The notes under the pieces: model-generated
Database searches by the model: none
What the model was told of the DNA's origin: nothing
Seen by the model: only the letters and a program-made list of their open reading frames with translations
In this document: in pieces, positions 10,563 to 62,824 of the stretch
Layout: every line of letters starts with the position of its first letter
How positions within the stretch are numbered: the stretch's first letter is position 1
Translations under genes and position numbers: made by a program
From: Nitrospirota bacterium
GTDB taxonomy: Bacteria > Nitrospirota > UBA9217
Reading direction: 5' to 3'
Length of the DNA stretch: 64,000 nucleotides
NCBI GenBank assembly: GCA_035623825.1
Contig: DASPSR010000007.1
Location: 96,001 to 160,000 of the forward strand

Positions 10563-10572
10563 CCATACGGTG

Positions 10573-47985: not shown

Positions 47986-48137
47986 TAACCGTGGAGGCAC
48001 GGAAGAAAGTTCAAGATCCAAATGCCAAAGATAGTTTAGCGGTCGAAAATCAAACAGGTTGCCGAAAGGCTTTCACATTAATATGATATTTGAGCAATGA
48101 TGCTCGCCTTTCTTTTATCGGTGTGCCTCTGTGGTTA
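47986..48137. repeat. REP/MITE-like element with imperfect terminal inverted repeats
   Basis: TAACCGTGGAGGCAC (47986-48000) pairs with GTGCCTCTGTGGTTA (48123-48137), with three G-T wobbles. Confidence 0.5.
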
Positions 48138-48173
48138 AATTTTTGTTTGAGACGTTCGCGAGGATCGTACCCT

Positions 48174-49805
48174 ATGAAGGCATCTGATCTATTCGTAAAG
48201 CAACTCGAAGAAGAGAGCGTCGAGTATATATTTGGCCTTCCCGGGGAGGAGAACCTCGACTTTCTCGAATCGCTCCGCACATCCTCGATTAAGGTCGTCA
48301 TTACGCGGCACGAACAGGCCGCAGCGTTCATGGCCGCCACTTATGGCAGATTGACAGGAAAGGCCGGTGTCTGCTTTTCGACGCTGGGGCCGGGGGCGAC
48401 AAACCTCATGACAGGCGTGGCTCATGCGCAGCTCATCGGCGCACCGCTCATCGCCATCACCGGCCAAAAAGCTCTTCGCGATAACTGGCAGGCAGCCTTT
48501 CAGCTCATCGATGTTGCGAGCATCATGCACCCCGTCACGAAGTATTCCCTCTCAATTGCCGATCCAAGCACCATCCCTACAGTCACGCGGAAAGCGTTCC
48601 GGATCGCACAGTCGGAACGTCCGGGCGCCGTACATATCGAGTTGCCTGAGGATGTCGCCCAGAGCGAGGCGCGCGCGGCCGTACAGAAACGAGGCTATGA
48701 ACGCCGGCCATCTCCTGACCCCAAGGCCGTGGACCGCGCAGCATCCCTGATCAACGCTGCGCAGAACCCCCTCCTCATTCTCTCCTCCGGCGCCAACCGG
48801 AAGTTGATCTCGCGCCGAATAAGCGAGTTCGTGGAGAAAACGGGGATCCACGCGGTTCATACACAAATGGGCAAAGGCGTGCTGAGCGATGCGTCTGAAT
48901 ATAGTCTCTTTGCCACCGGAATCCACAAAAAGGATTTCGTGAACTGTGGCATCGATAAAGCCGACCTCATCGTCACGGTGGGATACAACATCGTCGAGTA
49001 TCCGCCCTACCTCTGGAACGAGCGCTTGGACAAGGAAGTGATCCATATCGGATTCACCCCGGCCGCACTGGACAGGTATTACAACCCTGCTGTCGAAGTT
49101 GTTGGGGATGTGTCAGCGACGCTCAGATCGCTATGTGAGAGGGTTGGGCGAAAGAGCGGAAAAACGTTCCGAGCCATCCGCGCCTATCTGGGGAAAAAGC
49201 TCGCCATTGATCCCACCCGTCAGTTCCCACCCACTCCCCAAGAGGTGGTCTGGCATGTGCGGAATGTGCTGTCCGAGGACGACATCGTTACGATGGACAA
49301 CGGGATCTATAAACTCTGGTTCTCACGGCTCTATAAGACCTATAACCCCAATACTTTTTTACTCGATAATGCCCTTGCGACGATGGGCGCAGGTCTTCCA
49401 TCGGCCACGGCAGCGAAGATGCTCAATCCCGACAAGAATGTCCTCGCTGTAGTGGGAGACGGAGGATTCATGATGAACTCTCAGGAACTGGAGACGGCGC
49501 TCCGATACAACATTCCCGTTGTCGTGCTAATCCTTAACGATAACGCCTTTGGGTTCATCAAGTGGGAGCAGCAGGCCAAGGGCTTCAAAAATTTCAGCTT
49601 GGACTTCGGAAACCCCGACTTTTCACGTTTCGCGGAGAGCTTCGGTGCGGCGGGTTTCAAAGTCCGGAAAGGGGACGACCTCTCGAATGTGTTACGCGAG
49701 GCCTTTGCACTCAAGAGGCCGGCGGTGATCGAATGTCCCATTGATTATTCCGTCAACTATGCAACTTTCTCAAAAGAGCTCTCGAACTTTGTGTGCGAGG
49801 TGTGA
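48174..49805 (+). CDS. ThDP-dependent acetolactate-synthase-large-subunit-like enzyme (candidate 2-oxoglutarate decarboxylase)
   Basis: FGLPGEENL, RHEQ.AAFMA, STLGPGATN, GDGGFMMNSQELETA; no ilvN/ilvC adjacent. Confidence 0.85.
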   Translation: MKASDLFVKQLEEESVEYIFGLPGEENLDFLESLRTSSIKVVITRHEQAAAFMAATYGRLTGKAGVCFSTLGPGATNLMTGVAHAQLIGAPLIAITGQKALRDNWQAAFQLIDVASIMHPVTKYSLSIADPSTIPTVTRKAFRIAQSERPGAVHIELPEDVAQSEARAAVQKRGYERRPSPDPKAVDRAASLINAAQNPLLILSSGANRKLISRRISEFVEKTGIHAVHTQMGKGVLSDASEYSLFATGIHKKDFVNCGIDKADLIVTVGYNIVEYPPYLWNERLDKEVIHIGFTPAALDRYYNPAVEVVGDVSATLRSLCERVGRKSGKTFRAIRAYLGKKLAIDPTRQFPPTPQEVVWHVRNVLSEDDIVTMDNGIYKLWFSRLYKTYNPNTFLLDNALATMGAGLPSATAAKMLNPDKNVLAVVGDGGFMMNSQELETALRYNIPVVVLILNDNAFGFIKWEQQAKGFKNFSLDFGNPDFSRFAESFGAAGFKVRKGDDLSNVLREAFALKRPAVIECPIDYSVNYATFSKELSNFVCEV

Positions 49806-49851
49806 CCCTAAACAACAACAACAAGAACGACGACGCCGATGAGTGATGATG

Positions 49852-49917
49852 TATCAGGAGACAATAAAGTTCGCCCAGAGATAACAAAGTTTGCCCTAGA
49901 CAATAGAATTCTTCCAA
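49852..49917 (+). mobile_element. Tn7-like transposon right end (degenerate terminus)
   Basis: TATCAGGA terminus (cf. TGTCTGCA), then three contiguous repeats AGACAATAAAGTTCGCCC / AGATAACAAAGTTTGCCC / AGACAATAGAATTCTTCC at 49859, 49879, 49898. Confidence 0.7.
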
Positions 49918-49934
49918 TTAGCACCACTTCAAGC

Positions 49935-50090
49935 TCAATTAAAGACTTCCTCAGGATAGACTTCCGGTTTGTAGTAATGTAATGTATCCTCGGAATGTAA
50001 CGGATGATGACCAATTGTATGAGCAATAGTAAAACGCTGCATGTGCGCATGATCGTCTTCTCTTCCGCCAAGAAATAGTTGCTCCCTCTT
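49935..50090 (-). pseudogene. Relic of an ImmA/IrrE-family metallopeptidase
   Basis: QRFTIAHTIGHHPLH resembles RQRFTIAHELGH; short, no intact gene. Confidence 0.45.
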
Positions 50091-50193
50091 TCTTAAAGAA
50101 AACACCCGAGATGCCGCCATCAGAAAATGGAAAAGGAATAATATCAAGCTGTTCGTGAAACTGCCAGATTGTTTCAAAATTCCTGGCCAGCCC

Positions 50194-51735
50194 CTATTCC
50201 CTCGGAGGGCGACTCAGCACATCGAGGGCTACCGGATTTATAAGGCGCAGGTCCTTTGTATAGATCCCGACGCCTGGATATTCGGAATAGTATTCCCAGA
50301 AGCTCCAATGAAGACCTTCATCGCGCATAATACTGGTGAGATCCTGTAGGTATCTGACAACACTTTCCCGAGCCGGGTTCGCGTGGGCAGTGAATTCTCC
50401 AACATAGAGCGGTACCTTGTGAAGGGACTTGAACCGCAATGCATAGCCAAGTTGTTCGAGGATCGCTTTCCTGTCCACATGCCCAAGCATTCTTCGTTTG
50501 TGCCAGGACAGGGAAAGAACATTTTCTCCGGTCGCTCGTTCTGAGCTATACCATCCTGAAAGACGGTACTCGCCTTGTTCAACTTCAAAGGGGCTGCTCG
50601 TTGCTGAACCAGGCGTCTGGCACCCGGACAAAGCCAGGGAGAATTTCCCGGTATGTGCGGCCTTGTCAGTAACACTCACGCATGCGCCCCGAATATTCCA
50701 GCTTATTCCCGGATAATCTATCTCAAAAGAGCTGTTCGAGACGAGGGGGGCGGGCAGTTCAAGAGTGCGACCATCGACTTCAAGCATGATATCATCGACA
50801 AATACGGTCCCGGCATTACCATATGATGAGATGTTCACCAAAAGCAGTTCAGCCCCTTCAGGGGGCCGCGCCCGGACGCTTACGCGTGACCATCCGTTGT
50901 CTCCTGTCATCGTTCCGGTCTTTGTTTCACCGATCTTTTCCCCGAATGTTGTCATCGCTCCGGGGTATGTTAATGCGACTCGTTCCGTTGTGGTCACGTA
51001 GAGGGTGAAAGAGGACGGGTAGAAAAAGTGAATGCTGTAAACCGTGTTCTTGTCTGGGAAAAGAAACAACTCGTTCCTTCCACCAGGCAGCAGGGCTTCT
51101 TCAATAATAAGAATATGGTTCTTGTCGCGTGAGCGTATCTTTTTTATTGTGGTGCTCATGACGCGGATATAATCCTTTCCTGTTGGAGGCTCCCCTTCAT
51201 TCAGGAGATCATATCCTGCGACGATAGTTTGCTGGGCATACCTTTCAGCGATTTTTTCCCACAGCGAGTAGAAGCATTCCTGATGCTCGTCCTTAGACCA
51301 AAAGTCGAAGGCTGTTTGTCTGTGGACGACAAAATCATGGGAGTTCTGGATTCCCGGAGCAAGGTGCATATCGAGGACGACAAAAACAGCATATTTCTTG
51401 CACCAGTTCAGGAGAGTATCGAGGAGGGTAAAGTTGGCTTCGTTGTAGTTGAACGGCTCGACCACAAAGTCTCGATAATCAATCACGAGACGAATGCTGT
51501 TCCAGGCTGAATCGGCAATTCTCCTTATGTCCTGCTCGCCCAGTGCGTGCTTGAAATGCTTGAACTGTACATTGATGCCACGAAGCAGTATCCGTTTGCC
51601 AGAAGCATCAAGGATCTTTTCTCCCTTGACCTGGAGAAATTTTTCTTGGGTATTGCCGGAAGATACTTGTGTGGTATGAAGCAGTATCGAAATGAACAGG
51701 GTAACCGTAAGAATGGTCTTTATCATTATCGTCAA
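50194..51735 (-). CDS. Glycoside hydrolase family 5 (cellulase-like) with internal carbohydrate-binding-like insert
   Basis: Signal peptide; LRGIN, NSIRL, VLDMH, GYDLLNE, YSIHFFYP, LYVGEF, WSFW. Confidence 0.85.
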   Translation of the reverse strand: MTIMIKTILTVTLFISILLHTTQVSSGNTQEKFLQVKGEKILDASGKRILLRGINVQFKHFKHALGEQDIRRIADSAWNSIRLVIDYRDFVVEPFNYNEANFTLLDTLLNWCKKYAVFVVLDMHLAPGIQNSHDFVVHRQTAFDFWSKDEHQECFYSLWEKIAERYAQQTIVAGYDLLNEGEPPTGKDYIRVMSTTIKKIRSRDKNHILIIEEALLPGGRNELFLFPDKNTVYSIHFFYPSSFTLYVTTTERVALTYPGAMTTFGEKIGETKTGTMTGDNGWSRVSVRARPPEGAELLLVNISSYGNAGTVFVDDIMLEVDGRTLELPAPLVSNSSFEIDYPGISWNIRGACVSVTDKAAHTGKFSLALSGCQTPGSATSSPFEVEQGEYRLSGWYSSERATGENVLSLSWHKRRMLGHVDRKAILEQLGYALRFKSLHKVPLYVGEFTAHANPARESVVRYLQDLTSIMRDEGLHWSFWEYYSEYPGVGIYTKDLRLINPVALDVLSRPPRE

Positions 51736-51774
51736 TGGGCGGGACAGGTAATGAGACTTTTTGAAGGCCTGATG

Positions 51775-51945
51775 TTAAGATGTCTTCATTGTCCGGGGAT
51801 CTGAGCAAGGTTCCCCTCTCCTGCACTGCGAAGACTTAGTCCCGCATAGAGTGTACCAGTTCTTGAAGCCGTAGTAGAATACAAGCGTCACATAAATGCA
51901 GATCGCCGCCACGACGGCTATGATGATCAGCATGATCGTCACCAT
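51775..51945 (-). CDS. Small single-TM protein (56 aa), absent from the ORF track
   Basis: MVTIMLIIIAVVAAICIYVTLVFYYGFKNWYTLCGTKSSQCRRGEPCSDPRTMKTS; strong AGGAGGT RBS; co-oriented with GH5. Confidence 0.65.
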   Translation of the reverse strand: MVTIMLIIIAVVAAICIYVTLVFYYGFKNWYTLCGTKSSQCRRGEPCSDPRTMKTS

Positions 51946-52432
51946 ACCACCTCCTGCCGATATATCTTAGTATATGATAGCGCTGAGACAGAAGAAGTCA
52001 AGAGGAGAAAAGGCTGAGGAAAGAGTACCCTATCGTGTCACTCTAACGCTGCACCCATATCATCGATGGAGCCTTCATCTTTTATCACCATGAAAGTCTC
52101 CGGCTTTAGTTGTTGACTCAGAACCAACTGGATCGTTACAAGAAAACAGGCCATTAAATACAGAAGATGAGAGATATTCCAGGAGGATCTTCACCGAGCT
52201 GCGTATTTCTCGGCGAACACAGAATATATCCGCTCGCTCAGTTCATCTGCTTGTTGGGCGATCGCAAAGCAGGACAAGAGAACTAACGCAACGATACTGC
52301 CGGCGAGAAACGATACTGCGCACAGAATCCCATTCCCTTTTAATTCAATTGGTTCTGACGCAAAAGACGCATTTCAGCATGTGATGTGCATCGGTAATAA
52401 CAAAAAAAGGCAAAAGTAACGCGACCGACGGC

Positions 52433-53314
52433 CTAAGATGTTTCTTCAAGAATGTCCTTTTGATCGCGCACAGCCAGATGGGCGGCCAAGGACCTTGCCA
52501 CAATAGGGTTCGAGAGTTCTGGCGGAATCGAGATATCCTTCAGCACGCATCGGGACAATTCCATGAGATCGGACGTAGCCGCATGACGAGAGCACTTTCT
52601 TACCGCCGTATGAACGCGTTGAAGATACTGCAGCCCCTCATTCATGCGTTGGTAGACGAGGGCACCTTGCCGGGGTTCATCCCAAGAGGGGAGGAGATAA
52701 TGAAGGTCCTTAACGGCCTTAAGCTTTTGTATGGACGCAACCGAGGCCGGGACATCCTCGTAGATGGGCAGCTCGCCGGGAACGGGGATGGCATCTCCTG
52801 AAAAGAGCGCCTGGTATCCGAGCAGCAGAATGGCGATCGAGCCTTTCGAGTGGCCCGGGGTGTGGATCACCTGCAGCTTGAGGCCGCAGCCGAGGTCAAA
52901 AACCTCACCGTCCTCGAGCAGCCTGTTCACTACCAATGATCCAGCCACAAGAGAGCCGAAACCGGGTACCGGCCTCTCCTTTGCCTGCAGCTGTACATTC
53001 TCGATCCAAGCCTTTTCCGCGGCGTGAGCGGCAATAGCGCATCCCGTCTCCCCCTTTATGGTTCTTGATGCCCCGATATGGTCCGGATGAGAATGCGTCT
53101 GGACAATCAGCGATATGTCGCTTACTCTCCGGTCTGTCGCCCTCAGATAATTGAAGATCGTCTCCTCGGCAGACGCCACGCCGGCATCGATAAGACAGAT
53201 CCCATGCGTGCCGTAGATAAGATAGACGTATACGAACCGCTCCAGCGTCACGCCCCACGGGGTCGTTATGGTAAAGGGAATCTTGATTGCATGAATTTGC
53301 TTGTTGATCTGCAT
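52433..53314 (-). CDS. MBL-fold metallo-hydrolase
   Basis: LIDAG, THSHPDHIG, HTPGHS, FSGDA. Confidence 0.9.
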   Translation of the reverse strand: MQINKQIHAIKIPFTITTPWGVTLERFVYVYLIYGTHGICLIDAGVASAEETIFNYLRATDRRVSDISLIVQTHSHPDHIGASRTIKGETGCAIAAHAAEKAWIENVQLQAKERPVPGFGSLVAGSLVVNRLLEDGEVFDLGCGLKLQVIHTPGHSKGSIAILLLGYQALFSGDAIPVPGELPIYEDVPASVASIQKLKAVKDLHYLLPSWDEPRQGALVYQRMNEGLQYLQRVHTAVRKCSRHAATSDLMELSRCVLKDISIPPELSNPIVARSLAAHLAVRDQKDILEETS

Positions 53315-53427
53315 TGATACAGTATTTCCTTTTCCCCATACTATAGAATATTTGAATCCATTGCAAGATAAAACAAGGAAGACCTCGCAAGGGGCTGCCT
53401 TTTTGTCAGTGATCCACATAAATGCGC

Positions 53428-53514
53428 TTCAACGTATTTAACGGCGCTCTCTACTATGCAGCCAATGATGCCACGAATGGTTGAGAGCATTGGAATACTG
53501 ACGGTACCATGGCC
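53428..53514 (+). pseudogene. Fragment of an ELWxxDGT-repeat protein
   Basis: FNVFNGALYYAANDATNG*EHWNTDGTMA (in-frame stop). Confidence 0.6.
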
Positions 53515-53590
53515 GAATTAATAAAACTCAAATCTATACTGGAACACGCAGCAGTTGCGTTTCTTGGAAATTCTAATTTTATCCTATCGG

Positions 53591-53746
53591 CTAAAAAAGT
53601 AAGAACTTTATTGTTTGCGATTGGAAGAACTTTATTGTCTTAAACGGGGAAAAGTAAGAACTTTGTCTTTTTTGCCGATTTTCGAACACTATATAAATCA
53701 ATGAGTTAGAATAAGCATTTTGCAACAACTTTGTTGTTTGCAGACA
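53591..53746 (-). mobile_element. Tn7-like transposon left end #1
   Basis: Terminal TGTCTGCA on - strand; TnsB-type repeats (GTAAGAACTTTATTGTCT consensus) at 53599, 53623, 53654, 53722; IHF consensus AATCAATGAGTTA at 53696. Confidence 0.8.
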
Positions 53747-53879
53747 ACAAACGTCGTCGGCGAAACAAGGGAGAACCATGGACCGTAAAGGCAAGACTGC
53801 ACCTCAATTTCACAAAGAGGAAAGAGAATCTTGGAATTACCGATCTTACTAAATTTCCGCCCAAGTTCTGACATGACGG

Positions 53880-54854
53880 CTATCTCTGCTTCCTCTCCCA
53901 TTCCCATGCAGTCTTGATGATGTAATCGAGGGAATCGAATTTCGGCTTCCAATTCAGTTTTTGTTTCAACCTGGAACTGTCAGCAACCAGGACTGGAGGG
54001 TCTCCTCCCCTTCGCTCAGTCTCCTGGACCACAAAGCTCTTCCCAGTTACCTTCTTGGCGGTATCAATCACTTCCCTTACGGAGTATCCATGGCCGTAGC
54101 CACAATTAAAAAAATCACTCTTGCCACCCTCAAGAAGATATTTGAGTGCAAGAAGATGAGCATCGGCAAGGTCTTCTACATGGATATAGTCCCTGATACA
54201 TGTGCCGTCAGGAGTGGGGTAATTTGTCCCGTATACCTTGATGCTCTGGCGCTCCCCTTTTGCGGTCTTTAATATAAGCGGAATTAGGTGCGATTCAGGG
54301 TTGTGCCGCTCCCCGATTCGTCCCTTAGAATCCGCCCCTGCGGTATTGAAGTAACGGAGGGAAATCTGTTGAAAATCCATGGCAGCCGACAGATCCTTTA
54401 AGACCTGTTCAACAATGACCTTTGATTGACCATAGGGATTGATGGGGCTTATCTTCTCATCTTCGGTTATCGGGACTTTTTCGGGAATGCCGTACACGGC
54501 CGCGCTAGAAGAAAAGATGAATTTGCGCACCCGATGTTTTGTGAGGACATCTAGAAGGTTTAAGGTGTTTCCTACGTTGTTTACATAATATTTAATAGCA
54601 TTACTGACCGATTCGCCGACCTCGATGAAAGCCGCAAAATGCATCACCGCATTAGGCCTGAACCATTTTACGGTATGTTCAAGTCGCATCGTATCAGCTA
54701 GGTCACCAACGACTAGTTCACCATCCAAGACAGAATCACGGTAGCCCCTCGAAAGGTTGTCGTAGACCAGTATCGTAAAACCCGCTTCATCTAGGGCTTT
54801 GACGACGTGACTTCCTATATATCCGGCACCGCCGGTGACAAGGATATTTCTCAA
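53880..54854 (-). CDS. galE: UDP-glucose 4-epimerase
   Basis: TGGAGYIGSH, HFAA..VGES, FSSSAAVYG, YGQSK, LRYFN, DGTCIRDYIHV. Confidence 0.95.
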   Translation of the reverse strand: MRNILVTGGAGYIGSHVVKALDEAGFTILVYDNLSRGYRDSVLDGELVVGDLADTMRLEHTVKWFRPNAVMHFAAFIEVGESVSNAIKYYVNNVGNTLNLLDVLTKHRVRKFIFSSSAAVYGIPEKVPITEDEKISPINPYGQSKVIVEQVLKDLSAAMDFQQISLRYFNTAGADSKGRIGERHNPESHLIPLILKTAKGERQSIKVYGTNYPTPDGTCIRDYIHVEDLADAHLLALKYLLEGGKSDFFNCGYGHGYSVREVIDTAKKVTGKSFVVQETERRGGDPPVLVADSSRLKQKLNWKPKFDSLDYIIKTAWEWERKQR

Positions 54855-55190
54855 TAATGTCTCTCTTATAGTAAAAGTATTATGATCGTATTTCTTTACG
54901 ACTCAGTAAGTTAATAACACGAACACGACTACGAGTCAAATCGTATTTTCCGCTTTTGCAAATTCCTCAATCTAGCCACTTATTTAGTAAATCAAACTGT
55001 AAGTCCGTTACCATCCATTTCTCTGGTAACTAATCGGCTATTGAACAGCCCCACTTAGCTCATTGGAATGCACCTTGTTTAGTTCTTGCCATCATCTTGA
55101 TGTCTCCATAAAATGCTCTTGCAATTTGTAAATCGTTTTTAGTATGATAAGTGCATATGCGTTTTGCGGCCTTAGAATGCGGTTTATGGG

Positions 55191-55344
55191 CCAAAAAAAC
55201 AAGAAATTTATCGTCTGCGATTGTAAGAACTTTATTGTCTTAAACAGGGAAAAGTAAGAACTTTGTCTTTTTTGCCGATTTTTGAGCACTATATAATTCA
55301 ATGAGTTACTACGAGCTTTGTAATAACTTTATTGTCCGCAGACA
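55191..55344 (-). mobile_element. Tn7-like transposon left end #2
   Basis: - strand begins TGTCTGCGGACAATAAAG (cf. Tn7 TGTGGGCGGACAATAAAG); near-copy of end #1 at a 1600-bp offset. Confidence 0.82.
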
Positions 55345-55610
55345 TCTCCTCCTCCTGTATGTTTCATATCGTAGTTATTACTCTCATCAACAGAATATTC
55401 TTCGTACGGATGTTTGCAAATAAAGAGATGTGATGTTGTGCAACATTCTGCCCAGTTTTATTGACAAGCATAGCGGCCATTGCTATCCTTAGATTAGTTA
55501 CAGAGGTATGATATCGCGATAAACTGAAAATAAGGAGAAGACGCCGTACGAAAGCTTGAAATGTGCGCGATTCACAATACTTCACAAATCAGAATGAGGA
55601 GGTGACATTT

Positions 55611-55934
55611 ATGCCGGCAATGGAGACCGTTAAAGAGATGAAGGAATCCATAAGCATACATCGGGGCTTCGGTAGGTCGCGAGACGTGGAATTCGTGCTT
55701 TATGCGCCTGAAGCTAAGAAAGCTTATATCGCAGGTAAATTCAACAATTGGAACACAGAACAGTATCCCATGAAAAAAGGCAAGGATGGGTTTTGGAGAA
55801 TAAAAATCAAACTATCTGCGGGGACGCATGAGTATAAGTATTTTGTTGATGGCGCTTGGGCTCAAGATGTTCCCTGTGCCGCACTGGTGCCGAATCCATT
55901 TGGCACTTCTAACTGTGTAATTTCAGTGAAGTGA
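55611..55934 (+). CDS. Glycogen-binding (CBM48/AMPK-beta, isoamylase early set) domain protein
   Basis: APEAKKAYIAGKFNNW, G.HEYKYFVDG.W, NPFGTSN; GAGGAGG RBS. Confidence 0.9.
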   Translation: MPAMETVKEMKESISIHRGFGRSRDVEFVLYAPEAKKAYIAGKFNNWNTEQYPMKKGKDGFWRIKIKLSAGTHEYKYFVDGAWAQDVPCAALVPNPFGTSNCVISVK

Positions 55935-56020
55935 TCGATTGTCGGGGTGACGATGCAGTCGAGGTCGTGTAAAAACCTCTGGGTGTTTTTCCCAGGCAAC
56001 CGTTAAAGCGAATCTTGACA

Positions 56021-56053
56021 GCCCCGTTCCGTGGACGTTAGGAGCGGGGTTTT
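56021..56053 (+). terminator. Rho-independent terminator
   Basis: GCCCCGTTCC/GGAGCGGGGT stem plus TTT. Confidence 0.55.
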
Positions 56054-56375
56054 GTATTTACTGCTCGTCTTTGCACTAGCAAATCGATGCGCGGACCTTT
56101 TCCGCTGTGTAACTACCAACCAGGGATTCACAATTTAATTTCGATATAGCCTCATGCCTATTAATAGGTGTCTTCGATACTGATGCGAATTCTAAAAAAT
56201 AAGGATTTCCGCTAGATGACTTTCGCCAGGCCTTCCTATTCGAAACGTGTGACTAAGACGTCTTATCAGCAAGAATAGATACATCCTGAAGTCGTTGTCG
56301 ATGTAATTCTTTGCAACCTTCATGTTTCCTGCCGAACGAAACAGCACGTATCCCGACTATCTCCATCCCAGGTGG

Positions 56376-56404
56376 TTGACAATTGTATCGTTCAGGAATA
56401 TAGT
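56376..56404 (+). promoter_or_regulatory. Near-consensus promoter facing the cassette (Pc-like)
   Basis: TTGACA-N17-TATAGT. Confidence 0.7.
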
Positions 56405-56500
56405 TTTTTCGATCCATGAATATCATGGCACAATCATTGCTAAACTCGATAATACCGGAAATTCGTTTTTTACGAGTTAAGCATAACCAGACAATCACTT

Positions 56501-56993
56501 GTTAGGCCTGTTAACAATTTCAAAAATCACCAAGGAGAAAACATGCGCTGGTATCACTACATTGCTTTCTTTTTTGCTGGAGCGTTTCTAACAAACGCAA
56601 TTCCTCATTTCGTCAACGGTATCTCCGGCTCAGCTTTTCAAAGCCCCTTCGCCTCTCCACTTGGGCAAGGCCTATCTTCAGCGTTGGTCAATGTTCTTTG
56701 GGGCTTTTTCAATTTTGTACTCGGCTACCTTCTGGTTTGCAGAGTTGGGACCTTCAGCCTCAGAAAGACCAGCCACGCAATTGCATTGGGTGCCGGAATC
56801 CTTTGTATGTCGCTTATGCTGGCCCATTCATTCGCGCGGTTCCATGGCGGATTGTAGTAATGGTCGGCCTAACCATAATACGCTCAAATCGGACCCAACA
56901 GCCGCTGATTGGTTCCTCCACCGGACATCCGTCCTTCTCGTCTCCTTCGTGCCTCCGGCTGGCGGTTGGTCCGGTTAGCGAGACTCGTTCTGA
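56501..56993 (+). mobile_element. Integron gene cassette with attC site (56867-56993)
   Basis: Core GTTAGGC at 56501 is complementary to inverse core GCCTAAC at 56867; L'' CGCTCAAATCGGACCCAACAGCC pairs with L' GGCGGTTGGTCCGGTTAGCG with extrahelical bases; next core GTTCTGA at 56987. Confidence 0.75.
56543..56857 (+). CDS. Small membrane protein (cassette gene), function unknown
   Basis: AAGGAG RBS; three hydrophobic segments; NAIPHFVNGISG..FQSPFA. Confidence 0.8.
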   Translation: MRWYHYIAFFFAGAFLTNAIPHFVNGISGSAFQSPFASPLGQGLSSALVNVLWGFFNFVLGYLLVCRVGTFSLRKTSHAIALGAGILCMSLMLAHSFARFHGGL

Positions 56994-57185
56994 ATAGTAC
57001 TATTGGAATTATTGGAGTTTCCAACTCTGAGACTTAGTAGGTGCCGTTAACTCCGGTCGAGAGAAGGTCGTCTGATCTTTTCTGGTTGAAATGTTCAGCC
57101 TTAGTGTCTTCCTGAAAGGCGCTAGTTGCCATTCTTTTAAATATTGTTCGTTTCTCGTGAAAGTTGCAATTCTGGATGCAAAATG

Positions 57186-57330
57186 GTAAGAAATTAATTG
57201 TCTGCAAATTTCACAACATTATTGTTTATTGAATTAAAATGTAAGAACTTTAGTTTTCGGGCGGTTTTCCGGCCATTGAAATATCAATGAGCTACAGACT
57301 TGTTTGTAAGGACTTAATTGTCTGCAGACA
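57186..57330 (-). mobile_element. Tn7-like transposon left end #3 (more divergent)
   Basis: - strand begins TGTCTGCAGACAATTAAG; repeats at 57186, 57211, 57241, 57306; IHF-like TATCAATGAGCTA at 57282. Confidence 0.78.
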
Positions 57331-57515
57331 CCCCTCCTCTCTCGCTCGTCGTCTTTTTTTCATGGCTAACTGCAACTAGCTTCAGTTTTTCTCGCCTGCA
57401 TCTCTTCCCGTTGACAATGCAGCGCTAAAAGAATAAAATGTCGGACTCGCAATACCCGTAGATGATCAAGAACTCTTTCGGAATCCAACGCTATCTACTC
57501 CAAAACCGTTCACCA

Positions 57516-57544
57516 TTGACATCGCACTAGTTCGGGCATATAGT
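57516..57544 (+). promoter_or_regulatory. Near-consensus promoter of the DUF1810 gene (a second one at 57411-57439)
   Basis: TTGACA-N17-TATAGT; TTGACA-N17-TAAAAT. Confidence 0.6.
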
Positions 57545-57582
57545 TGGTGTGCTGCGATCTAACTGCAGGCCAAGAGTCAGAA

Positions 57583-58059
57583 ATGACAAAAGCAAACGAT
57601 ACGATAGGCCGTGATGATCCATTTGGCTTAAGTCGCTTCATAAATGCTCAAGACGGCGTCTATGATCGTGTCCTCGAGGAGTTGAAAAACGGCCGGAAGA
57701 GATCGCACTGGATGTGGTACATATTTCCGCAGGTTGATGGATTGGGATACAGTGCTACCTCGAAACACTATGCCATAAAAAGTGTAGAAGAGGCTCGGGC
57801 ATACTTAAATCACCCTGTTCTTGGATCAAGACTGTTGGAATGTGCAAACACTGTCTTGGCCACTGAAGGACGGTCAGCTTCTGGTATTTTTGGCTACCCC
57901 GATGATCTGAAGCTTCAATCCTCCATGACTCTTTTTGCATCCGTAGCGGATCAGGACTCCGTATTTGCCCATGTCCTTGATAAGTATTTTCAGGGCGAAC
58001 GCGACGTGAGAACGCTCCAGATATTGAAGAAAATGAGGGGGGACAAGGGCCGAGAATAG
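57583..58059 (+). CDS. DUF1810 family protein
   Basis: DPFGLSRF..AQ, GRKRSHWMWYIFPQ, HPVLG.RL, D.LK..SSMTLF. Confidence 0.92.
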   Translation: MTKANDTIGRDDPFGLSRFINAQDGVYDRVLEELKNGRKRSHWMWYIFPQVDGLGYSATSKHYAIKSVEEARAYLNHPVLGSRLLECANTVLATEGRSASGIFGYPDDLKLQSSMTLFASVADQDSVFAHVLDKYFQGERDVRTLQILKKMRGDKGRE

Positions 58060-58338
58060 CCTGGCGATGCGCTCCAACAGATGAGCTAATCAAATGATAA
58101 CTGCGCTTATGGTTATGAATCGTATATCTTTTATAGATCCTTTCTGTCATATTATGCCACCGAACCTATACCTATAAATTTGCATTTCGGAAGCCTTTTG
58201 CTTCCAATCGTGCCCGGCAAATATATGCTTCCATAAAATAAGCGAAAAACACTTGGCTTGGACAAACTCAGCCATAGAACGGATATATCATCACACCATA
58301 TGTAAATATATCTAGCAAGCTCACATAGTACTCCCTAT

Positions 58339-58521
58339 ATGAATTACGGGGCCAACAGCGTGAATACATCTGAAGCGAATAACAATTTCAATCCCCTTGC
58401 TAATTGTGCTAACATGATAGCATCAGATACAGGCATGCTGATCAACAACAACCCGGCACAATGAACAACAATGGTGCGCTAAACAATTTCGGGACACTGA
58501 ACAACTTCGTCAATCAATAGG
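58339..58521 (+). pseudogene. Frameshifted relic of an Asn/Gly-rich beta-helix repeat (adhesin-like) gene
   Basis: ...GMLINNN / GTMNNNGALNNFGTLNNF across a frameshift. Confidence 0.35.
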
Positions 58522-58562
58522 GAACAAAATAAGTTACAGATTCATTAATTTCAGGAGGCATT

Positions 58563-59390
58563 TTGACCATATCAAAAAATATTAGGCAATATTATTATAG
58601 CTTGTTTGATCTGTTAAAATTGGATAAAAATGGTGGGGATCCCAATGGGCCTGTGGTATCCCTGACAACTGTCCCGCACCGTATTGATAATATCAAGCCA
58701 ACGCTGGTCAGCTTATTGCGTCAAACGGTAAAACCAAAACGAATTGAAATAAACTTGAGCGAAGAATTGTTTGCGGGGAGAAAAATACCCATGTCGCTTC
58801 TAAACCTGGAAAATGTAAAAATATGTTGGCAAAAAAAGGATTACGGTCCTGCTACAAAATTGATTGCCACGATCGAAAGATATCAAACTCAAAACGAGAG
58901 AATAGTTATAGTTGATGATGATATGTATTATTCGAAAGATATGATATCGGATTTAATGGCTGCTGATATGAAAGCAGATGGCAAACACGTTTTTTGCATC
59001 AATGGCTTTTTATTACCAAGGGACCTTAAATCAGAATCTATTGGATCGGACAAGGCATTGAAGTCAGGCACCAGAAAAGTAGCGGTTATTGAGGGATGTG
59101 GTGGCTACATATTACGTTCTAACCATCTTGATTGGAAGTTACTGTTAAATCTTGAAAATGCTCCAGCAAGAGCCTTGTTTGATGACGATATTTGGTTTAG
59201 TGGTCATTTAAGCAAAGCTGGCGTTGACAAAATACAGATTCCGACCGGCAAAAGGAAGTCTCTGGTCAACTCCCATAAAGGATCTGCTATTAGTGGCGAC
59301 AGGTGGCAATTGCAATCGGATTTGATGATCTTTTTTAAAGATGATTGGAAAGATTATGAGTATGAACGTGATCAACCACGTACCTGCTGA
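58563..59390 (+). CDS. GT-A fold glycosyltransferase (AT-rich)
   Basis: VVSLTT.P.RI, DYGPATKL, IVDDD, DDIWFSG. Confidence 0.85.
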   Translation: MTISKNIRQYYYSLFDLLKLDKNGGDPNGPVVSLTTVPHRIDNIKPTLVSLLRQTVKPKRIEINLSEELFAGRKIPMSLLNLENVKICWQKKDYGPATKLIATIERYQTQNERIVIVDDDMYYSKDMISDLMAADMKADGKHVFCINGFLLPRDLKSESIGSDKALKSGTRKVAVIEGCGGYILRSNHLDWKLLLNLENAPARALFDDDIWFSGHLSKAGVDKIQIPTGKRKSLVNSHKGSAISGDRWQLQSDLMIFFKDDWKDYEYERDQPRTC

Positions 59391-59602
59391 GCCAGCCCAA
59401 TCATTAATCGTCTGTGCATGAAGAGATAGAGACCTGACGAGCACCGTGGTCTGTCATGGGTGCACGGTACACGCAGGGAAAGTGCCGACCACAGAGAGCC
59501 GGAAAGCTCGCCCAGACCGGCTTGAGGCAGGCGGGATTTTCGTCAGTATCTATGCCGGGTCCGTGCGCGCGGTCCGTAGTACGGCGATGAATGAGTTGCG
59601 GT

Positions 59603-60235
59603 ATGAAATCAGACGAGAGAAAAGACTTCGACAGAGAGGCGGCTACCTGGGACCAGAATCCAGGCAGGGTCAAGCTTGCCGATGACGTAGCCGATACGAT
59701 CATCAGAGAAATACACCCGACCAGAGATATGGACGTTCTGGATTTCGGCTGCGGTACGGGGTTGGTGACTCTCCGGCTGCAGCCTTTCGTGAAGACGATT
59801 ACTGGCGCTGACAGTTCAAAAGGCATGCTCGGCGTTCTCCAGGACAAGGTCAGCAGGTCGGGCCTGAAGAACGTTAAGATGCAATTCGCGGATTTTGAAA
59901 AGGGGGAGCGAGTAGAGGGAACGTTTCATTTGGTTGTGAGCAGCATGACCCTGCATCATGTGTCTGACACCGGCCAGCTGTTCAGGCAGTGGTATGGTCT
60001 GCTGCTGCCAGGCGGCGTGCTCTGCGCCGCCGATTTGGACGCGGAGGACGGTTCTTTTCACGGAGACAATTTTGGCGTGCTGCATTTTGGTTTTGATCGG
60101 CGACACCTGAAAGGGCTTCTCCAAAAGACTGGTTTTACGGAAGTCCGTGATGTAACGGCCGCAGCCGTTGAGAAAGAGATCGAAGGGAAGGGGAAACGGA
60201 CGTTCAGGGTGTTCCTGATAATCGGGAAAAAATAG
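59603..60235 (+). CDS. Class I SAM-dependent methyltransferase
   Basis: FD..AATWD, VLDFGCGTG, SSMTLHHV. Confidence 0.92.
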   Translation: MKSDERKDFDREAATWDQNPGRVKLADDVADTIIREIHPTRDMDVLDFGCGTGLVTLRLQPFVKTITGADSSKGMLGVLQDKVSRSGLKNVKMQFADFEKGERVEGTFHLVVSSMTLHHVSDTGQLFRQWYGLLLPGGVLCAADLDAEDGSFHGDNFGVLHFGFDRRHLKGLLQKTGFTEVRDVTAAAVEKEIEGKGKRTFRVFLIIGKK

Positions 60236-60298: not shown

Positions 60299-62824
60299 TC
60301 AACACGTTGCCTGCGATCCGCTGCCGAGCATTTCCGCTACCTTGTTTAAGAGCTTATTGGGCGACACGGGCTTTGAAAGAAAGTTAACGTCGTCTCCCAG
60401 GAGGCCTTTTTTATAGATGATTTCTGCGGTATATCCGCTCGTAAAGAGCGCCTTGACTGAGGGGTTCATCTTCCTGATCTCGTTATAGGCCTCTCGGCCG
60501 TTCTTCCTCGGCATGATGACATCAAAGATAAGGAGCCGGATTGTATCCTTATTATCCCGGTATTTCTCTAGAGCCTCTTCGCCATCGGAAGCCTCAATGA
60601 CGGTATAGCCAAATCCCTGTAGCACCGCCGTCGTAAGGTTCCGTACACTGCTGTCATCTTCTGCGACCAGGAGGGTCTCCGTGCCACCAGTCGGCACGGG
60701 GGCGCTGACAGACCTTGCGTGATGGAGCGCGGCCTTGATCTGCGGCAGATAGACCTTGAAGGTCGTACCTATCCCGGGTTCGCTATAGACACTGATATAC
60801 CCGCTGTGCTGTTTTACGATACCATAGACGATGGCAAGGCCAAGCCCGGTCCCTTTGCCCGTGGACTTGGTGGTGAAGAACGGTTCAAAGATCCTCTTTA
60901 CGGTTTTCTTGTCCATACCCGTGCCAGTGTCCGTTACGGTGAGCAGCGCGTAATTACCAGGCTTCCCGTATCCGTGCGCCTTTATGAAATCGCTGTTCAA
61001 CTCAACGTCTCCCGTCTCAATGGTCAACTTTCCCCCTCGCGGCATGGCATCCCTCGCGTTCGTGACGAGATTGATCATGATTTGCTCGATCTGGCCCGTA
61101 TCCGCCTTAATGGGCAATGGTTCATCGTGTAGAACTTGCTTGATCTCGATGTCCTCTCCGATGAGCCGCTCTATGAGTTTCTCGACCCGCCGCACGATTG
61201 TATTCATCTCCACGTGCTTTGGAGTGAGTATCTGCTTCCTGCTGAATGCTAGAAGGCTTTGGGTAAGGCTGGCTGCTCGCTCCGTAGACGCGAGAATGCT
61301 GTTCACGCTTGGCCGAAGGGGGTCGTTTTCAGCCATCTTCATCTGCATGAGGCTGCTATAGCCGATGATCGCCGTTAGGATATTGTTGAAGTCGTGCGCC
61401 ACACCGCCCGCCAATGTTCCTACAGCCTCCATTTTCTGAGAGTGAAGAAGCTGTTCCTCTAGCCTCTTTTTCTCGGTGATATCATTGTGAATCTCGATTG
61501 CCGAAATTATTTCACCGCGGGAATTCTTCAAAGGGAAAGACCTGACCTCGGTATAGACGGAGTCCCCTTCCTTATCATAGTGCGTATGGACTGCGGTATG
61601 TGGTTCGCCGGTCTCAAATGTGCGCTGCACGGCGCAGTCTTCACCTGACTCGTAACAGGGTGAAAGCATGTGGTGCGAGATCTCATAGCAGTGTCTGTAT
61701 ATTATATCGTCCGACGTCATCTTAAGCTTGCTGCAATAGGCTTTGTTGACGGAGACTATCCTGAAGTCGCGGCTGATTACGATGAACCCCTCGTCTACGG
61801 TGTCGAGGACATTTTTGATGAACTCCTCGTTATGCTTGTGTTCGGTGACGTTTTTGAATATGCCCTGTGTCTGCACAGGCCGACCGTCGATGACACTGCA
61901 ATGAACACTGCCTTCGACGATGACTGGCTTACCGGCCTTGGTCATGAACGTAGCACCGATGCGATCGATTTTTTCGCCGCCCAAGATGCGCTCGAACATC
62001 TCCTTGAAGTGATCCCTGGAATTAGGGTGGACAATGTCGAGGACGCTCATCTGGGCTATCTCCTCCTCGTTGTATCCGAGGGTCTCCCGCCAGGCCCGAT
62101 TGACATGCCGGAAGCTGCCGTCCGGCCCAGAGCTCTGGATGAGGTCATGGGCATTCTCAAAGAGGTCCCGGTATCGTGTCTCTCTTTCCGTGAGCGACTG
62201 TTCCATGCGCTTCTGACCGGTGATGTTGCGTGCTATACCCAGGATTGCGAGCATTTTGCCGTTCTGAATCTGCGGCGCCGAAATGATTTCTGTCGTAAGA
62301 TATTCTCCCGATTGCGAGAGAATGCGCAGTTCATAGGGAGACGGGGTCTGACCTGCTGTAAGGCGTTTGAACGCATCGAATGCTAGGTGAAGATCCTCGG
62401 GATGGATGATCGAGTGAAAATGCCTGCCGATATATTCCGTGCGCGGGAACCCGGTAACGGTTTCAAACACGGAGTTCAGGGTGGTGAATGTCCCTTCGGG
62501 GGAAAGGATAAAGATGATGTCCGGAGCAGTTTCGACGAGAATGCGATACCGTTGTCCCGATTCGGTCAGTTCTAACACGGTCGTCCCGAGCCTCCTCATC
62601 ATGAGGCTGCTATACGTGCTGAGCCCGAGAAGAACGATCATGATGCATGTCAGCGTGATGATCTCACCGGCGGTGGGCTTAAGTAATTGACGGAAGAAAG
62701 ACTTCTCCTGGGAAAGGCAAGCATTAATAAAGGGCCCTGAGACCCAGACGAACAAGCAGAGGCTAATCCCTGCGAAAATCATTTTCCATGGCATCCTCTT
62801 GCGCTGTAAGACCTCTGATTTCAT
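60299..62824 (-). CDS. Multi-PAS hybrid sensor histidine kinase/receiver
   Basis: Three PAS domains; [12 protein letters not shown]-box; [20 protein letters not shown]; C-terminal REC (FDVIMP). Confidence 0.95.

What the first reader, a model, noticed from the sequence alone, without database searches (positions are those of the whole stretch)
49852..57330. Transposase-less island built from one right and three nested left Tn7-like ends
Seen: three co-oriented ~150-bp elements ending ...GCAGACA (53746, 55344, 57330). Each has a terminal repeat, an IHF-consensus box (WATCAA-N4-TTR, perfect in #1), then 2-3 internal GTAAGAACTTTATTGTCT-type repeats. One oppositely oriented end with three contiguous repeats lies at 49852. 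End #2 reads TGTCTGCGGACAATAAAG, close to Tn7's TGTGGGCGGACAATAAAG. Known: spaced sites mark left ends and contiguous sites right ends, an IHF site lies between left-end sites in type I-F CASTs, and serial Tn7 insertion builds genomic islands. Inference: at least three related Tn7-like or CAST elements hit this locus in succession and lost their tns genes, leaving cargo modules that might be mobilised in trans with any of three alternative left ends.
Basis: partly seen in the sequence, partly recalled or inferred. Interest (0 to 1): 0.78.

Follow-up and report, generated by a model that had tools for sequence, protein, structure and literature searches.

The report
Transposase-less Tn7-family island, spare left ends
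A 9.8-kb block of foreign genes sits just after an acetolactate-synthase-like gene in an uncultured peat Nitrospirota bacterium; it is bounded by one right end and three left ends of a Tn7-type transposon that has no transposase genes of its own, a known kind of island at an insertion site I did not find described.

Summary
There is one right (R) end at 49852-49967. Three co-oriented ~155-bp left (L) ends finish at 53746, 55344 and 57330.

They are Tn7-family ends. In a related genus (G012), homologous ends flank a tnsA-tnsB-tnsC-tnsD element at the same site, about 11 nt after the stop of the orthologous acetolactate-synthase-like (TPP) gene. Its TnsB resembles Tn7 TnsB (E 8e-95).

Three same-genus genomes have no island: the TPP gene is followed directly by the gene that starts at 59604 in the window. 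The insertion is therefore 49806-59603, longer than reported.

No tns gene was found in the window or in this 89.65%-complete MAG. In the order, 12 of 46 surveyed sites carry such ends, but only 1 of 64 genomes has the matching tnsB.

In an independent peat metagenome, a ~98.6%-identical contig leaves the window exactly at the L#1 terminus (53746). It lies behind a different TPP gene, so R..L#1 behaves as a discrete 3.9-kb unit.

Serial insertion with loss of the older R ends and tns genes is the best reading, but it is inferred. No 5-bp target-site duplication (TSD) survives in the window. There is no sign of a CRISPR-associated transposon (CAST).

This is a known kind of island at an apparently undescribed attachment site.

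The parts
48090..49805 (+). Attachment-site gene: acetolactate-synthase-like TPP enzyme. Its conserved 3' coding end is the presumed TnsD recognition region.
   Evidence: Pfam TPP_enzyme N, M and C domains. NCBIfam NF006187, 785.9 bits against a cut-off of 509. Family ends lie just after its stop in 12 of 46 surveyed genomes.
49806..49851 (.). 46-nt triplet-repeat tract (AAC/GAC/GAT) between the stop codon and the R terminus. In relatives this gap is only 10-14 nt.
   Evidence: The stretch from 49811 on is shared with the X8 variant. Its origin is unresolved.
49852..49967 (+). Right end: terminus TATCAGGA, three contiguous sites (49859-49876, 49879-49896, 49898-49915) and a weak fourth at about 49936-49953.
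   Evidence: R-end HMM E 2.2e-20. Same architecture as R ends in G012, G043, G063, G055 and G054.
49935..50177 (-). Cargo: 80-aa fragment of an M78/ImmA-like peptidase, reading HTIGH where HExxH is expected.
   Evidence: Pfam PF06114, E 9e-4, below cut-off. Sequence.
50194..51735 (-). Cargo: GH5 glycoside hydrolase (cellulase family).
   Evidence: Pfam PF00150, E 5.6e-24.
52433..53419 (-). Cargo: metallo-beta-lactamase-fold hydrolase.
   Evidence: Pfam PF00753, E 4.2e-22.
53591..53746 (-). Left end #1. Sites at 53599, 53623, 53654 and 53722. IHF-consensus box at 53696-53708. Terminus ...GCAGACA at 53746.
   Evidence: L-end HMM E 1e-37. The X8 contig departs from the window exactly after 53746.
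53880..54854 (-). Cargo module 2: NAD-dependent sugar epimerase/dehydratase.
   Evidence: Pfam PF01370, E 3.4e-54.
55190..55344 (-). Left end #2. Sites at 55199, 55223, 55254 and 55320. IHF-like box at 55296-55308 with one mismatch. 87% identical to L#1.
   Evidence: HMM E 3e-39.
55563..55934 (+). Cargo module 3: CBM48 carbohydrate-binding protein. It is followed by 1.2 kb (55935-57177) with no recognisable gene.
   Evidence: Pfam PF16561 and PF02922. No Pfam hit for 6 stop-to-stop frames in 56076-57218. Homologues of 50-61% aa identity lie beside family ends in G058 and within 0.8 kb of the TPP stop in G060.
57178..57330 (-). Left end #3. Sites at 57186, 57210, 57241 and 57306. IHF-like box at 57282-57294 with one mismatch. 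77% identical to G012 L-B.
   Evidence: HMM E 2e-39. Spanned by an independent X4 contig covering 56786-57719.
57544..58059 (+). Oldest part of the insertion: DUF1810 protein.
   Evidence: Pfam PF08837, E 2.3e-61. Absent from this locus in all 45 surveyed relatives.
58563..59390 (+). Oldest part of the insertion: 275-aa protein with a weak GT2-like match.
   Evidence: Pfam PF00535, E 0.004, below cut-off.
59391..59603 (.). Right border zone of the insertion. No recognisable end here. Homology with same-genus genomes resumes at 59603.
59604..60235 (+). First native gene after the island: a methyltransferase. It directly follows the TPP gene in G001 and G003, and follows it after about 345 nt in G002.

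Best explanation
The window holds a non-autonomous (tns-less) island of the prototypic Tn7 family. It lies at a TnsD-type attachment site just downstream of an acetolactate-synthase-like TPP gene, with the right end next to that gene.

Shown:
- The block 49806-59603 is an insertion relative to same-genus genomes.
- It carries one R end and three full-length L ends, each with four TnsB-type sites and a conserved IHF-like box.
- Homologous ends flank tnsABC + tnsD at the same site in G012.
- The unit R..L#1 (about 3.9 kb: M78 fragment, GH5, MBL-fold) occurs on its own behind a different TPP gene in another metagenome.

Inferred:
- Related elements entered the site one after another. The newest lies nearest the TPP gene and pushes older ones away.
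- The older elements lost their R ends and tns genes, and the newest unit has none either.
- Loss of the resident R end may be what relieves Tn7 target immunity and allows re-insertion. That would explain one R end with several L ends.
- The units can now move only if TnsABC+D is supplied in trans by a rare autonomous relative. TnsB would pair the single R end with a left end.
For: Ends and their statistics.

Empty site: in G003 and G001 the TPP gene is followed within about 35-50 nt by the methyltransferase. G002 has about 345 nt holding a degenerate R remnant.

Autonomous relative G012: R end 11 nt after the TPP stop; TnsA (PF08722, E 1e-18); TnsB (Tn7 TnsB 7pik, E 8e-95); TnsC (AAA_22/TniB); two TnsD (PF15978, E 3e-67 and 3e-46; Tn7 TnsD 8glu, E 1e-18); then L ends 57-77% identical to the window's.

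5-bp duplications in relatives: G014 AATTT/AATTT. In G012, CCTTC before R1, CCTTC after L-C and CCTTG after L-B.

Site specificity: 12 of 46 surveyed genomes have a family site within 170 nt after the TPP stop. The R terminus mostly lies at +10 to +14 nt.

Tandem array with both ends retained in G012: L-B abuts R2 with 6 nt between.

Two lineages of L end in the window.

No tns found.

Run X8: a 3,665-nt contig at depth 7.33 equals 50437-53746 with 47 substitutions and 27 gap letters. It leaves the window exactly after 53746. A second contig covers 49811-50313 and is preceded by an unlike TPP gene end. X8 has no cover at 90% likeness over 54338-60175 or 48500-49333.

Island G+C is 0.36-0.58 (0.36-0.50 from 53.3 kb on), against 0.51-0.62 in most of the flanks.

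The host has two IHF/HU-family genes scoring just under the himA and hip cut-offs.
Against: In the window no L end shares a 5-bp duplication with the R end. The 5 nt before R are TGATG. After L#1, L#2 and L#3 they are ACAAA, TCTCC and CCCCT.

No R-end remnant follows any L end. The best candidate, at 55356, ranks only 112-183 of 3,202 places. Serial insertion in situ is therefore not demonstrated.

The last 2.3 kb of the insertion (57331-59603) has no recognisable end.

The R terminus is TAT rather than TGT and lies 46 nt, not about 11 nt, after the stop.

In X8, similarity begins about 40 nt outside the R terminus (at 49811). That does not fit a clean TnsAB excision at 49852.

The X8 evidence is one assembled Logan contig, not reads.

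G012's L-A lies inside what looks like one element, so extra L ends can be inherited as a block.

The MAG is 89.65% complete, so an autonomous copy elsewhere in the cell cannot be excluded.
Confidence: 0.75

Rival explanations
1. A single composite element: the whole R..L#3 block (or R..59.6 kb) arrived in one transposition event, already carrying vestigial internal L ends built up elsewhere. There were not three hits at this locus.
For: G012 carries an internal L end (L-A) 2.3 kb inside L-B, within the span bounded by R1 and L-B/L-C, whose flanks share the duplication CCTTC. The window has no internal R remnants.
Against: No L end in the window shares a 5-bp duplication with R. X8 shows R..L#1 alone, joined to other DNA exactly at 53746. 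L#3 belongs to a different end lineage from L#1 and L#2.
Confidence: 0.13
2. The L-end array arose by homologous recombination or duplication. L#1 and L#2 are copies of one end, and the epimerase module was captured between them by unequal crossing-over or by integration of a circular piece at an L end, not by separate transposition.
For: L#1 and L#2 are 87% identical direct repeats exactly 1,600 bp apart, flanking a single gene. The flank after L#2 (TCTCCTCCTCC) resembles the flank after L#1 in X8 (TCTCCCCCCCTCCTCC).
Against: 13% divergence between L#1 and L#2 is large for a recent duplication when the X8 copy of the unit differs by only about 1.4%. The CT-rich flank resembles the native sequence after the TPP stop in relatives (TTCTTTCTTCC in G001), so it may simply be target DNA. 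This rival does not explain L#3.
Confidence: 0.09
3. The repeats are not transposon ends. They would be binding-site arrays for a host regulator, or some other repeat family that only resembles Tn7 ends.
For: No transposase is present in the genome as assembled.
Against: They occur only in this island within the genome. They bound DNA that same-genus genomes lack. They have the asymmetric R/L architecture. Homologues flank tnsABCD and carry 5-bp duplications in relatives. 16 of 18 terminal bases match a Tn7-type end.
Confidence: 0.02

Closest known systems
Prototypic Tn7 and attTn7 genomic islands (Parks & Peters 2007 J Bacteriol, recalled and not held; Benler et al. 2021, PMC8649781, passages read)
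   Same: Terminal TGT + 5 nt + GACAATAAAG-type TnsB sites, 16 of 18 identical to a Tn7-type end. Contiguous sites at R and spaced sites at L. The R end lies next to a conserved gene's 3' end. 5-bp duplications occur in relatives. The relative's TnsB and TnsD are closest to those of Tn7. Benler et al. state that insertion internal or adjacent to an existing element yields multiple left and right ends.
   Different: The attachment gene is an acetolactate-synthase-like TPP gene rather than glmS. The R terminus is often TAT. The L end has four sites plus an IHF-like box. This copy has no tns genes and three L ends to one R end. The host is an uncultured Nitrospirota from peat.
Tn6022/AbaR-type resistance islands in Acinetobacter (PMC11014353, passages read)
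   Same: Tn7-like elements that build islands through multiple insertions, deletions and remnants at one attachment site. Multiple insertions are recognised there by complementary target duplications.
   Different: Those islands usually keep their tns genes and use comM or other sites. Here no duplication survives in the window, and the cargo is carbohydrate and other metabolic genes, not resistance genes.
Type I-F CRISPR-associated transposons with an IHF site in the left end (PMC10201428; only the search listing was seen, and the IHF claim is recalled)
   Same: A conserved IHF-consensus box lies between the terminal and inner TnsB sites of the L end. It is present in all 6 aligned L ends: perfect in 2 and with one mismatch in 4.
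   Different: There are no cas genes, no CRISPR array and no small TniQ. Targeting in the autonomous relative is by TnsD-like proteins.
Non-autonomous derivatives of DNA transposons (MITE-like or mini elements moved in trans)
   Same: Tns-less units with both ends and unrelated cargo sit at the same site in G014 (FtsH paralogue, exact 5-bp duplication), G043 and G062. The matching tnsB was found in 1 of 64 genomes.
   Different: These units are kilobases long, carry genes and are site-specific. Mobilisation in trans is inferred, not shown.

Membership tests
Tn7-like (heteromeric TnsA/TnsB) transposons | Terminal 8-bp segment 5'-TGT...ACA-3' followed by a TnsB-type site | tested here: met
   All three L ends read TGTCTGC(A/G)(A/G)ACAA... 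on the inward strand. The R end reads TAT + 5 nt + site. That variant is shared by the R ends of G012, G014 and G043.
Tn7-like (heteromeric TnsA/TnsB) transposons | Several ~20-bp transposase-site repeats, contiguous at the right end and spaced at the left end, in inverted orientation | tested here: met
   R end: 3 contiguous sites plus 1, over about 105 bp. L ends: 4 sites over about 155 bp.
Tn7-like (heteromeric TnsA/TnsB) transposons | 5-bp target-site duplication flanking the element | tested here: not met
   Window: TGATG before R, against ACAAA, TCTCC and CCCCT after the L ends. Met in relatives: G014 AATTT/AATTT, and G012 CCTTC/CCTTC.
Tn7-like (heteromeric TnsA/TnsB) transposons | tnsA, tnsB, tnsC and tniQ/tnsD encoded within the element | tested here: not met
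   None in the window by tblastn with G012 Tns proteins or by Pfam on island ORFs. None in the MAG, which is 89.65% complete. All four are present in the homologous G012 element. The window copy is therefore a non-autonomous derivative, not an autonomous member.
Tn7-like (heteromeric TnsA/TnsB) transposons | Site- and orientation-specific insertion just downstream of a conserved gene, with the R end proximal | tested here: met
   12 of 46 surveyed genomes have a family site within 170 nt after the TPP stop. The terminus lies at +10 to +14 nt in most and at +46 in the window.
Tn7-like (heteromeric TnsA/TnsB) transposons | TnsB binds the repeats and the ends support transposition | not testable with these tools
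   This needs EMSA or footprinting and a mate-out assay.
CRISPR-associated transposon (CAST) | cas effector genes and a CRISPR array or guide inside the element | tested here: not met
   No Cas family among Pfam hits for 10 + 10 window ORFs or for 20 ORFs of the G012 element. No dedicated CRISPR-array search was run.
IHF-dependent left end (as in type I-F CAST; recalled) | Functional IHF site between L-end transposase sites | tested here: inconclusive
   A consensus-like box is conserved in all 6 aligned L ends. The host has IHF/HU-family genes at 119.3 and 110.3 bits, just under cut-offs of 120.25 and 119.95. Binding was not tested.

The most novel reading that the evidence does not exclude
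In this Nitrospirota order a Tn7 lineage survives mainly as gene-carrying, transposase-less units moved in trans by a rare autonomous helper. Matching tnsB was found in 1 of 64 genomes, while family ends occupy at least 12 of 46 attachment sites. Arrays of intact alternative left ends behind a single right end would act as a cassette-like store. TnsB can pair R with L#1, L#2 or L#3 and so export nested sets of cargo. The R..L#1 unit, found about 98.6% identical behind a different TPP gene in another peat sample, would be one such export.
Probability: 0.25. Interest if true: 0.7.

Novelty: new member of a known kind. Interest (0 to 1): 0.4.

Why it matters
It adds an attachment site that I did not find described: the 3' end of an acetolactate-synthase-like gene. 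It also adds a little-studied host group, uncultured peat Nitrospirota, to the prototypic Tn7 clade.

In this group the attachment site is an insertion hot spot where transposase-less derivatives far outnumber autonomous elements.

If trans-mobilisation with alternative left ends is real, it would be a simple route for modular gene flow in uncultured bacteria. It could be tested with a standard mini-element assay.

Otherwise this is an ordinary decayed transposon island. Its practical value is in marking 49806-59603 as horizontally acquired DNA.

Tried and rejected
- **Remnant R ends after L#1, L#2 and L#3.** By eye, 55356-55430 looked like a decayed R end (TGTATGTT plus three weak sites). The R-end HMM gave nothing there. 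An architecture score ranked it 112-183 of 3,202 T[GA]T places. Rejected.
- **A fourth L end at the right border.** A weak site-like stretch lies at about 59398-59417, but there was no matrix or HMM hit. Homology with same-genus genomes starts only at 59603. Not supported.
- **tns pseudogenes in gene-poor stretches.** 10 stop-to-stop frames (51775-52419, 56076-57218, 49808-50071) gave 0 Pfam hits at E up to 0.1.
- **Shared cargo with relatives.** blastn of the island against all fetched loci found only the L ends and a CBM48 gene in G058. The M78 fragment matches G012's M78 gene over 20 aa only.
- **Wider search for the ends.** One IUPAC pattern scan of genome contigs gave 11 stretches. Only 1 (a Nitrospirae MAG contig of 20,957 nt, the same length as G045 C80) has the family context. 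The other 10 are lone sites.
- **Wider search for the autonomous element.**
  - Phylum sample: 5 of 401 genomes have a TnsB match at E <= 1e-30, and the 4 outside G012 are only 28-33% identical.
  - Metagenome contigs: 2 loci, one a 3-kb tnsA-tnsB contig at 55-60% identity with no ends on it.
  - TnsA-like genes of G014 C1 and G057 C1 sit beside TnsB-like genes of 24-25% identity, with no family sites.
- **Weak L-model hits in G005 and G076** (E 0.007-0.009) show no sites on inspection and are treated as chance.
- **The lone rve hit in the MAG** (C42, 305-aa frame; 268-aa ORF) is too short to be TnsB and has no Mu-transpos_C domain.
- **Literature.** 0 papers hold 'Tn7-like' + 'attachment site' + 'acetolactate synthase'. 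'acetolactate' and 'thiamine' occur 0 times in the main texts of PMC10293859 and PMC8649781 respectively. Supplementary tables were closed and may list this site.
- **Runs X9 and X7.** Cover is patchy and low-depth, so it gives no evidence about structure.
- **Survey rows left out.** Of 52 relatives with a TPP match, 7 were left out of the 46-genome survey because the gene's 3' end or downstream DNA is cut by a contig end: G065, G008, G023, G015, G056, G041, G010.

Full report
**Observation**

The four structures are present at the stated coordinates.

- The 18-mer GTAAGAACTTTATTGTCT, with up to 3 mismatches, occurs 8 times in the 64-kb window, all between 49859 and 57323. Shuffles give 0.01 expected.
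- A weight matrix built from 15 sites gives no hit of 11 or more outside 49859-57323.
- Profile HMMs find exactly three left (L) ends: 53591-53746, 55190-55344 and 57178-57330, with E 1e-37 to 1e-39. They find one right (R) end, 49852-49967, with E 2e-20.
- Each L end has an 8-nt terminus (TGTCTGCN on the inward strand), a terminal site, a ~65-bp gap holding a conserved box, and then three inner sites.
- The R end has the terminus TATCAGGA, three contiguous sites and a weak fourth.
- The box fits the recalled IHF consensus WATCAA-N4-TTR perfectly in L#1, and with one mismatch each in L#2 and L#3.
- The comparison with Tn7 was checked against a record. A Tn7-type right end on E. coli plasmid CP057753.1 reads TGTGGGCGGACAATAAAGTC... 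about 130 bp before tnsA. That is 16 of 18 identical to L#2.

**Extent of the island**

The window is G000:C13:96001-160000, part of a 3.24-Mb MAG in 67 contigs that is 89.65% complete.

- The gene ending at 49805 is an acetolactate-synthase-like TPP enzyme (NF006187, 785.9 bits).
- In the three same-genus genomes the orthologous gene is followed by the methyltransferase that starts at 59604 in the window. After that come the PAS histidine kinase and the next gene. The gap is about 35-50 nt in G003 and G001. In G002 it is about 345 nt and holds a degenerate R remnant.
- Nucleotide homology with these genomes resumes at 59603.
- The inserted block is therefore 49806-59603, about 9.8 kb. The finding stopped at 57330. 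G+C is lower in the block: 0.36-0.58, and 0.36-0.50 from 53.3 kb on, against 0.51-0.62 in most of the flanks.
- Cargo:
  - an M78-peptidase fragment, a GH5 hydrolase and an MBL-fold hydrolase, then L#1;
  - an NAD-dependent epimerase, then L#2;
  - a CBM48 protein and 1.2 kb without recognisable genes, then L#3;
  - a DUF1810 protein and a weak GT2-like protein, then a border with no recognisable end.

**Identity of the ends**

G012, a genome of another genus in the same family, has an R end 11 nt after the stop of its TPP orthologue (TATAAAGAAACAATTAAG..., three contiguous sites plus a fourth). Reading away from that gene, it then carries:

- defence-type cargo: ThiF/E2, an M78 peptidase and type I restriction-modification genes;
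- tnsA, tnsB and tnsC;
- two tnsD-like genes, one with an in-frame TGA;
- L ends at C11:362105-362215 (L-A, inner sites missing), 359698-359851 (L-B) and 352305-352458 (L-C).

L-B abuts a second, divergent R end (R2) with 6 nt between them.

G012's TnsB matches Tn7 TnsB (7pik, E 8e-95). Its TnsD matches the N-terminal part of Tn7 TnsD (8glu, E 1e-18).

The six L ends align over about 155 columns at 75% mean identity, including the IHF-like box. L#3 is 77% identical to G012 L-B but only 64-66% identical to L#1 and L#2. L#1 and L#2 are 87% identical to each other.

Five-bp duplications exist in relatives. G014 has AATTT on both sides of a 2.8-kb unit that carries only an FtsH paralogue. G012 has CCTTC before R1, CCTTC after L-C and CCTTG after L-B.

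This is the prototypic Tn7 clade with TnsD targeting. No Cas domain was seen in any scanned ORF.

**The attachment site in the order**

The order, as held, has 64 genomes, all in one family. 53 of them have a TPP orthologue at E <= 1e-100.

I oriented the downstream DNA of 46 of these. Seven were dropped because a contig end cuts the gene's 3' end or its downstream DNA.

- 12 of 46 have a family site (matrix score 11 or more) within 170 nt after the stop. The terminus (T[GA]T + 5 nt + site) mostly lies at +10 to +14 nt.
- By eye, six more carry truncated remnants: G002, G048, G044, G060, G050 and G075.
- The distance from the TPP gene to the next conserved gene ranges from about 25 nt to more than 10 kb.
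- An L-end model hits 13 of 64 genomes at E <= 0.01. These include the two genomes it was built from. The hits in G005 and G076 look like chance.
- The matching TnsB is found in 1 of 64 genomes. TnsD exceeds its cut-off in 1 of 64. TnsA exceeds its cut-off in 3 of 64. The two TnsA hits outside G012 sit beside TnsB-like genes of only 24-25% identity, with no family sites.
- Tns-less units with both ends and unrelated cargo occur in G014, G043 and G062.
- In a 401-genome sample of the phylum only 5 genomes have a TnsB match, and the other four are 28-33% identical.
- The genome contigs and metagenome scans added no further autonomous copy with these ends.
- One record title names a relative as a Nitrospirae MAG.

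**tns genes in the window and its genome**

tblastn with the five G012 Tns proteins finds nothing in the window. The MAG gave:

- no Mu-transpos_C hit (the control also rang nowhere, so this search is weak);
- no TniQ, TnsD or TnsA hit;
- no match to G012 TnsB;
- a single short rve gene on another contig.

The ends occur nowhere else in the MAG. Because the MAG is incomplete, absence from the cell is not proven.

**Population evidence**

The stretch is held by peat metagenome runs. I laid Logan contigs of four runs at 90% likeness.

- In run X8, which is not flagged as a possible source, a 3,665-nt contig at depth 7.33 equals 50437-53746 with 47 substitutions and 27 gap letters. It leaves the window exactly after 53746, the predicted L#1 terminus.
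- That contig continues with 36 other letters (TCTCCCCCCCTCC...) and then a diverged copy of the histidine-kinase region (about 60491-60836).
- A second X8 contig covers 49811-50313. It is preceded by a TPP gene end unlike the window's (TGCGAATACTGA TTCTTCTTCTAC...).
- X8 has no cover over 54338-60175 or 48500-49333.
- R..L#1 therefore exists as a discrete ~3.9-kb tns-less unit behind a different TPP gene. It is far more similar (about 98.6%) than the flanking host genes (under 90%).
- This fits recent horizontal movement of the unit, with L#1 as its true boundary.
- Caveats: this rests on one assembled contig, and similarity on the left begins about 40 nt outside the R terminus.
- An independent X4 contig spans L#3 (56786-57719), so that junction is not an artefact of this assembly.

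**Mechanism**

Shown:
- the asymmetric Tn7-type ends;
- site- and orientation-specific occupation of the TPP site;
- an autonomous relative at the same site;
- an empty site in same-genus genomes;
- a free-standing R..L#1 unit.

Inferred:
- Related elements inserted successively at the fixed point after the TPP stop. The newest lies nearest that gene, as in the G012 tandem [R1...L-B][R2...L-C].
- The older elements then lost their R ends and tns genes.
- Tn7-family target immunity blocks insertion into an occupied site (passage read in bioRxiv 10.1101/2025.07.27.667033). I therefore propose that re-insertion succeeds mainly after the resident homologous R end is lost.
- That filter would leave one R end with several L ends. 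G012 fits this, because the R end retained next to L-B has divergent sites (GGGAATAAAGTTGTTAC).
- The units can move now only with TnsABC+D supplied in trans.

Against the serial-insertion reading:
- the window has no matching 5-bp duplications and no R remnants;
- the distal 2.3 kb has no recognisable end;
- G012's L-A shows that an extra L end can sit inside one element.

**What is known already**

Islands built by repeated Tn7-like insertion, with extra ends, are established.

- Benler et al. 2021 (PMC8649781, passage read) state that transposition internal or adjacent to an existing element yields multiple left and right ends.
- Parks & Peters 2007 is recalled only.
- Remnants and multiple insertions are described for Acinetobacter (PMC11014353, passages read).
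- Dual tniQ/tnsD loci are common (PMC10293859, passages read).
- I found no mention of an acetolactate-synthase or TPP gene as an attachment site. Supplementary tables were closed.

**Verdict**

The Tn7-like reading is supported and the CAST alternative is not. 'Three successive hits' is plausible but unproven. Trans-mobilisation has one indirect line of support. This is a new member of a known kind, at an apparently undescribed attachment site in Nitrospirota.

Noticed in passing
window 49806-49851; also after the TPP stop in G057, G058, G059, G042, G052 and G002: Triplet-repeat tracts ((AAC)n, (GAC)n, (TAC)n, (AAT)n, (GCT)n) lie directly after the TPP stop codon in several genomes of the order. 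In the window the tract pushes the R end to +46 nt instead of about +11. It is shared with the X8 variant from 49811 on, so the left edge of the shared unit lies outside the R terminus. Unexplained.
   Followed up: partly
window 49834-49845 and 59583-59594: Similar 12-mers (GCCGATGAGTGA and GGCGATGAATGA, 10 of 12 identical) lie near the left and right borders of the whole insertion. This may be chance or a trace of the first insertion.
   Followed up: no
window 55563-55934; L070 (G058 C9) 7270-7581; G060 and G059 survey loci: CBM48-domain proteins of 50-61% aa identity recur near family ends or within 0.8 kb of the TPP stop in three other genomes. This points to an old, shared cargo gene of the element family.
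   Followed up: partly
L030 (G012 C11) 13129-16314 and 7397-12313: The autonomous G012 element carries defence-type cargo between its R end and tnsA: a ThiF/E1-like protein with a prokaryotic E2, an M78 peptidase, and type I restriction-modification genes (HsdM, HsdS, a helicase fragment).
   Followed up: no
G012 C11:368000-369034 (L074): One of the two TnsD-like genes of the autonomous element has an in-frame TGA, so it may be a pseudogene.
   Followed up: no
L062 (G043) 11868-13498; L038 (G001) 107-1781: The TPP attachment gene itself is split into two frames in G043 and G001. The target gene can decay while the elements or empty site remain.
   Followed up: no
L064 (G062) 14975-15010: In G062 an L-oriented terminal site (…GTATCAACTTTGTTGTCGACGTACA) lies directly after the TPP stop, where an R end is expected. 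This may reflect an inverted insertion or a deletion joining the site to an L terminus.
   Followed up: no
window 49935-50177 (-): The R-proximal ORF is an 80-aa fragment of an M78/ImmA-type peptidase. Its metal-binding motif reads HTIGH rather than HExxH. It is probably a dead remnant.
   Followed up: partly
window 53654-53671 and 55254-55271; X8 contig at 53656: Site c of L#1 and L#2 (GTAAGAACTTTGTCTTTT) is shorter than the consensus site. The X8 copy has 8 extra letters (AGAACTTT) here, so this site is length-polymorphic between copies.
   Followed up: no
window 8076-8149: A tRNA-Gln (TTG) gene is the only tRNA in the window. It is unrelated to the island.
   Followed up: no
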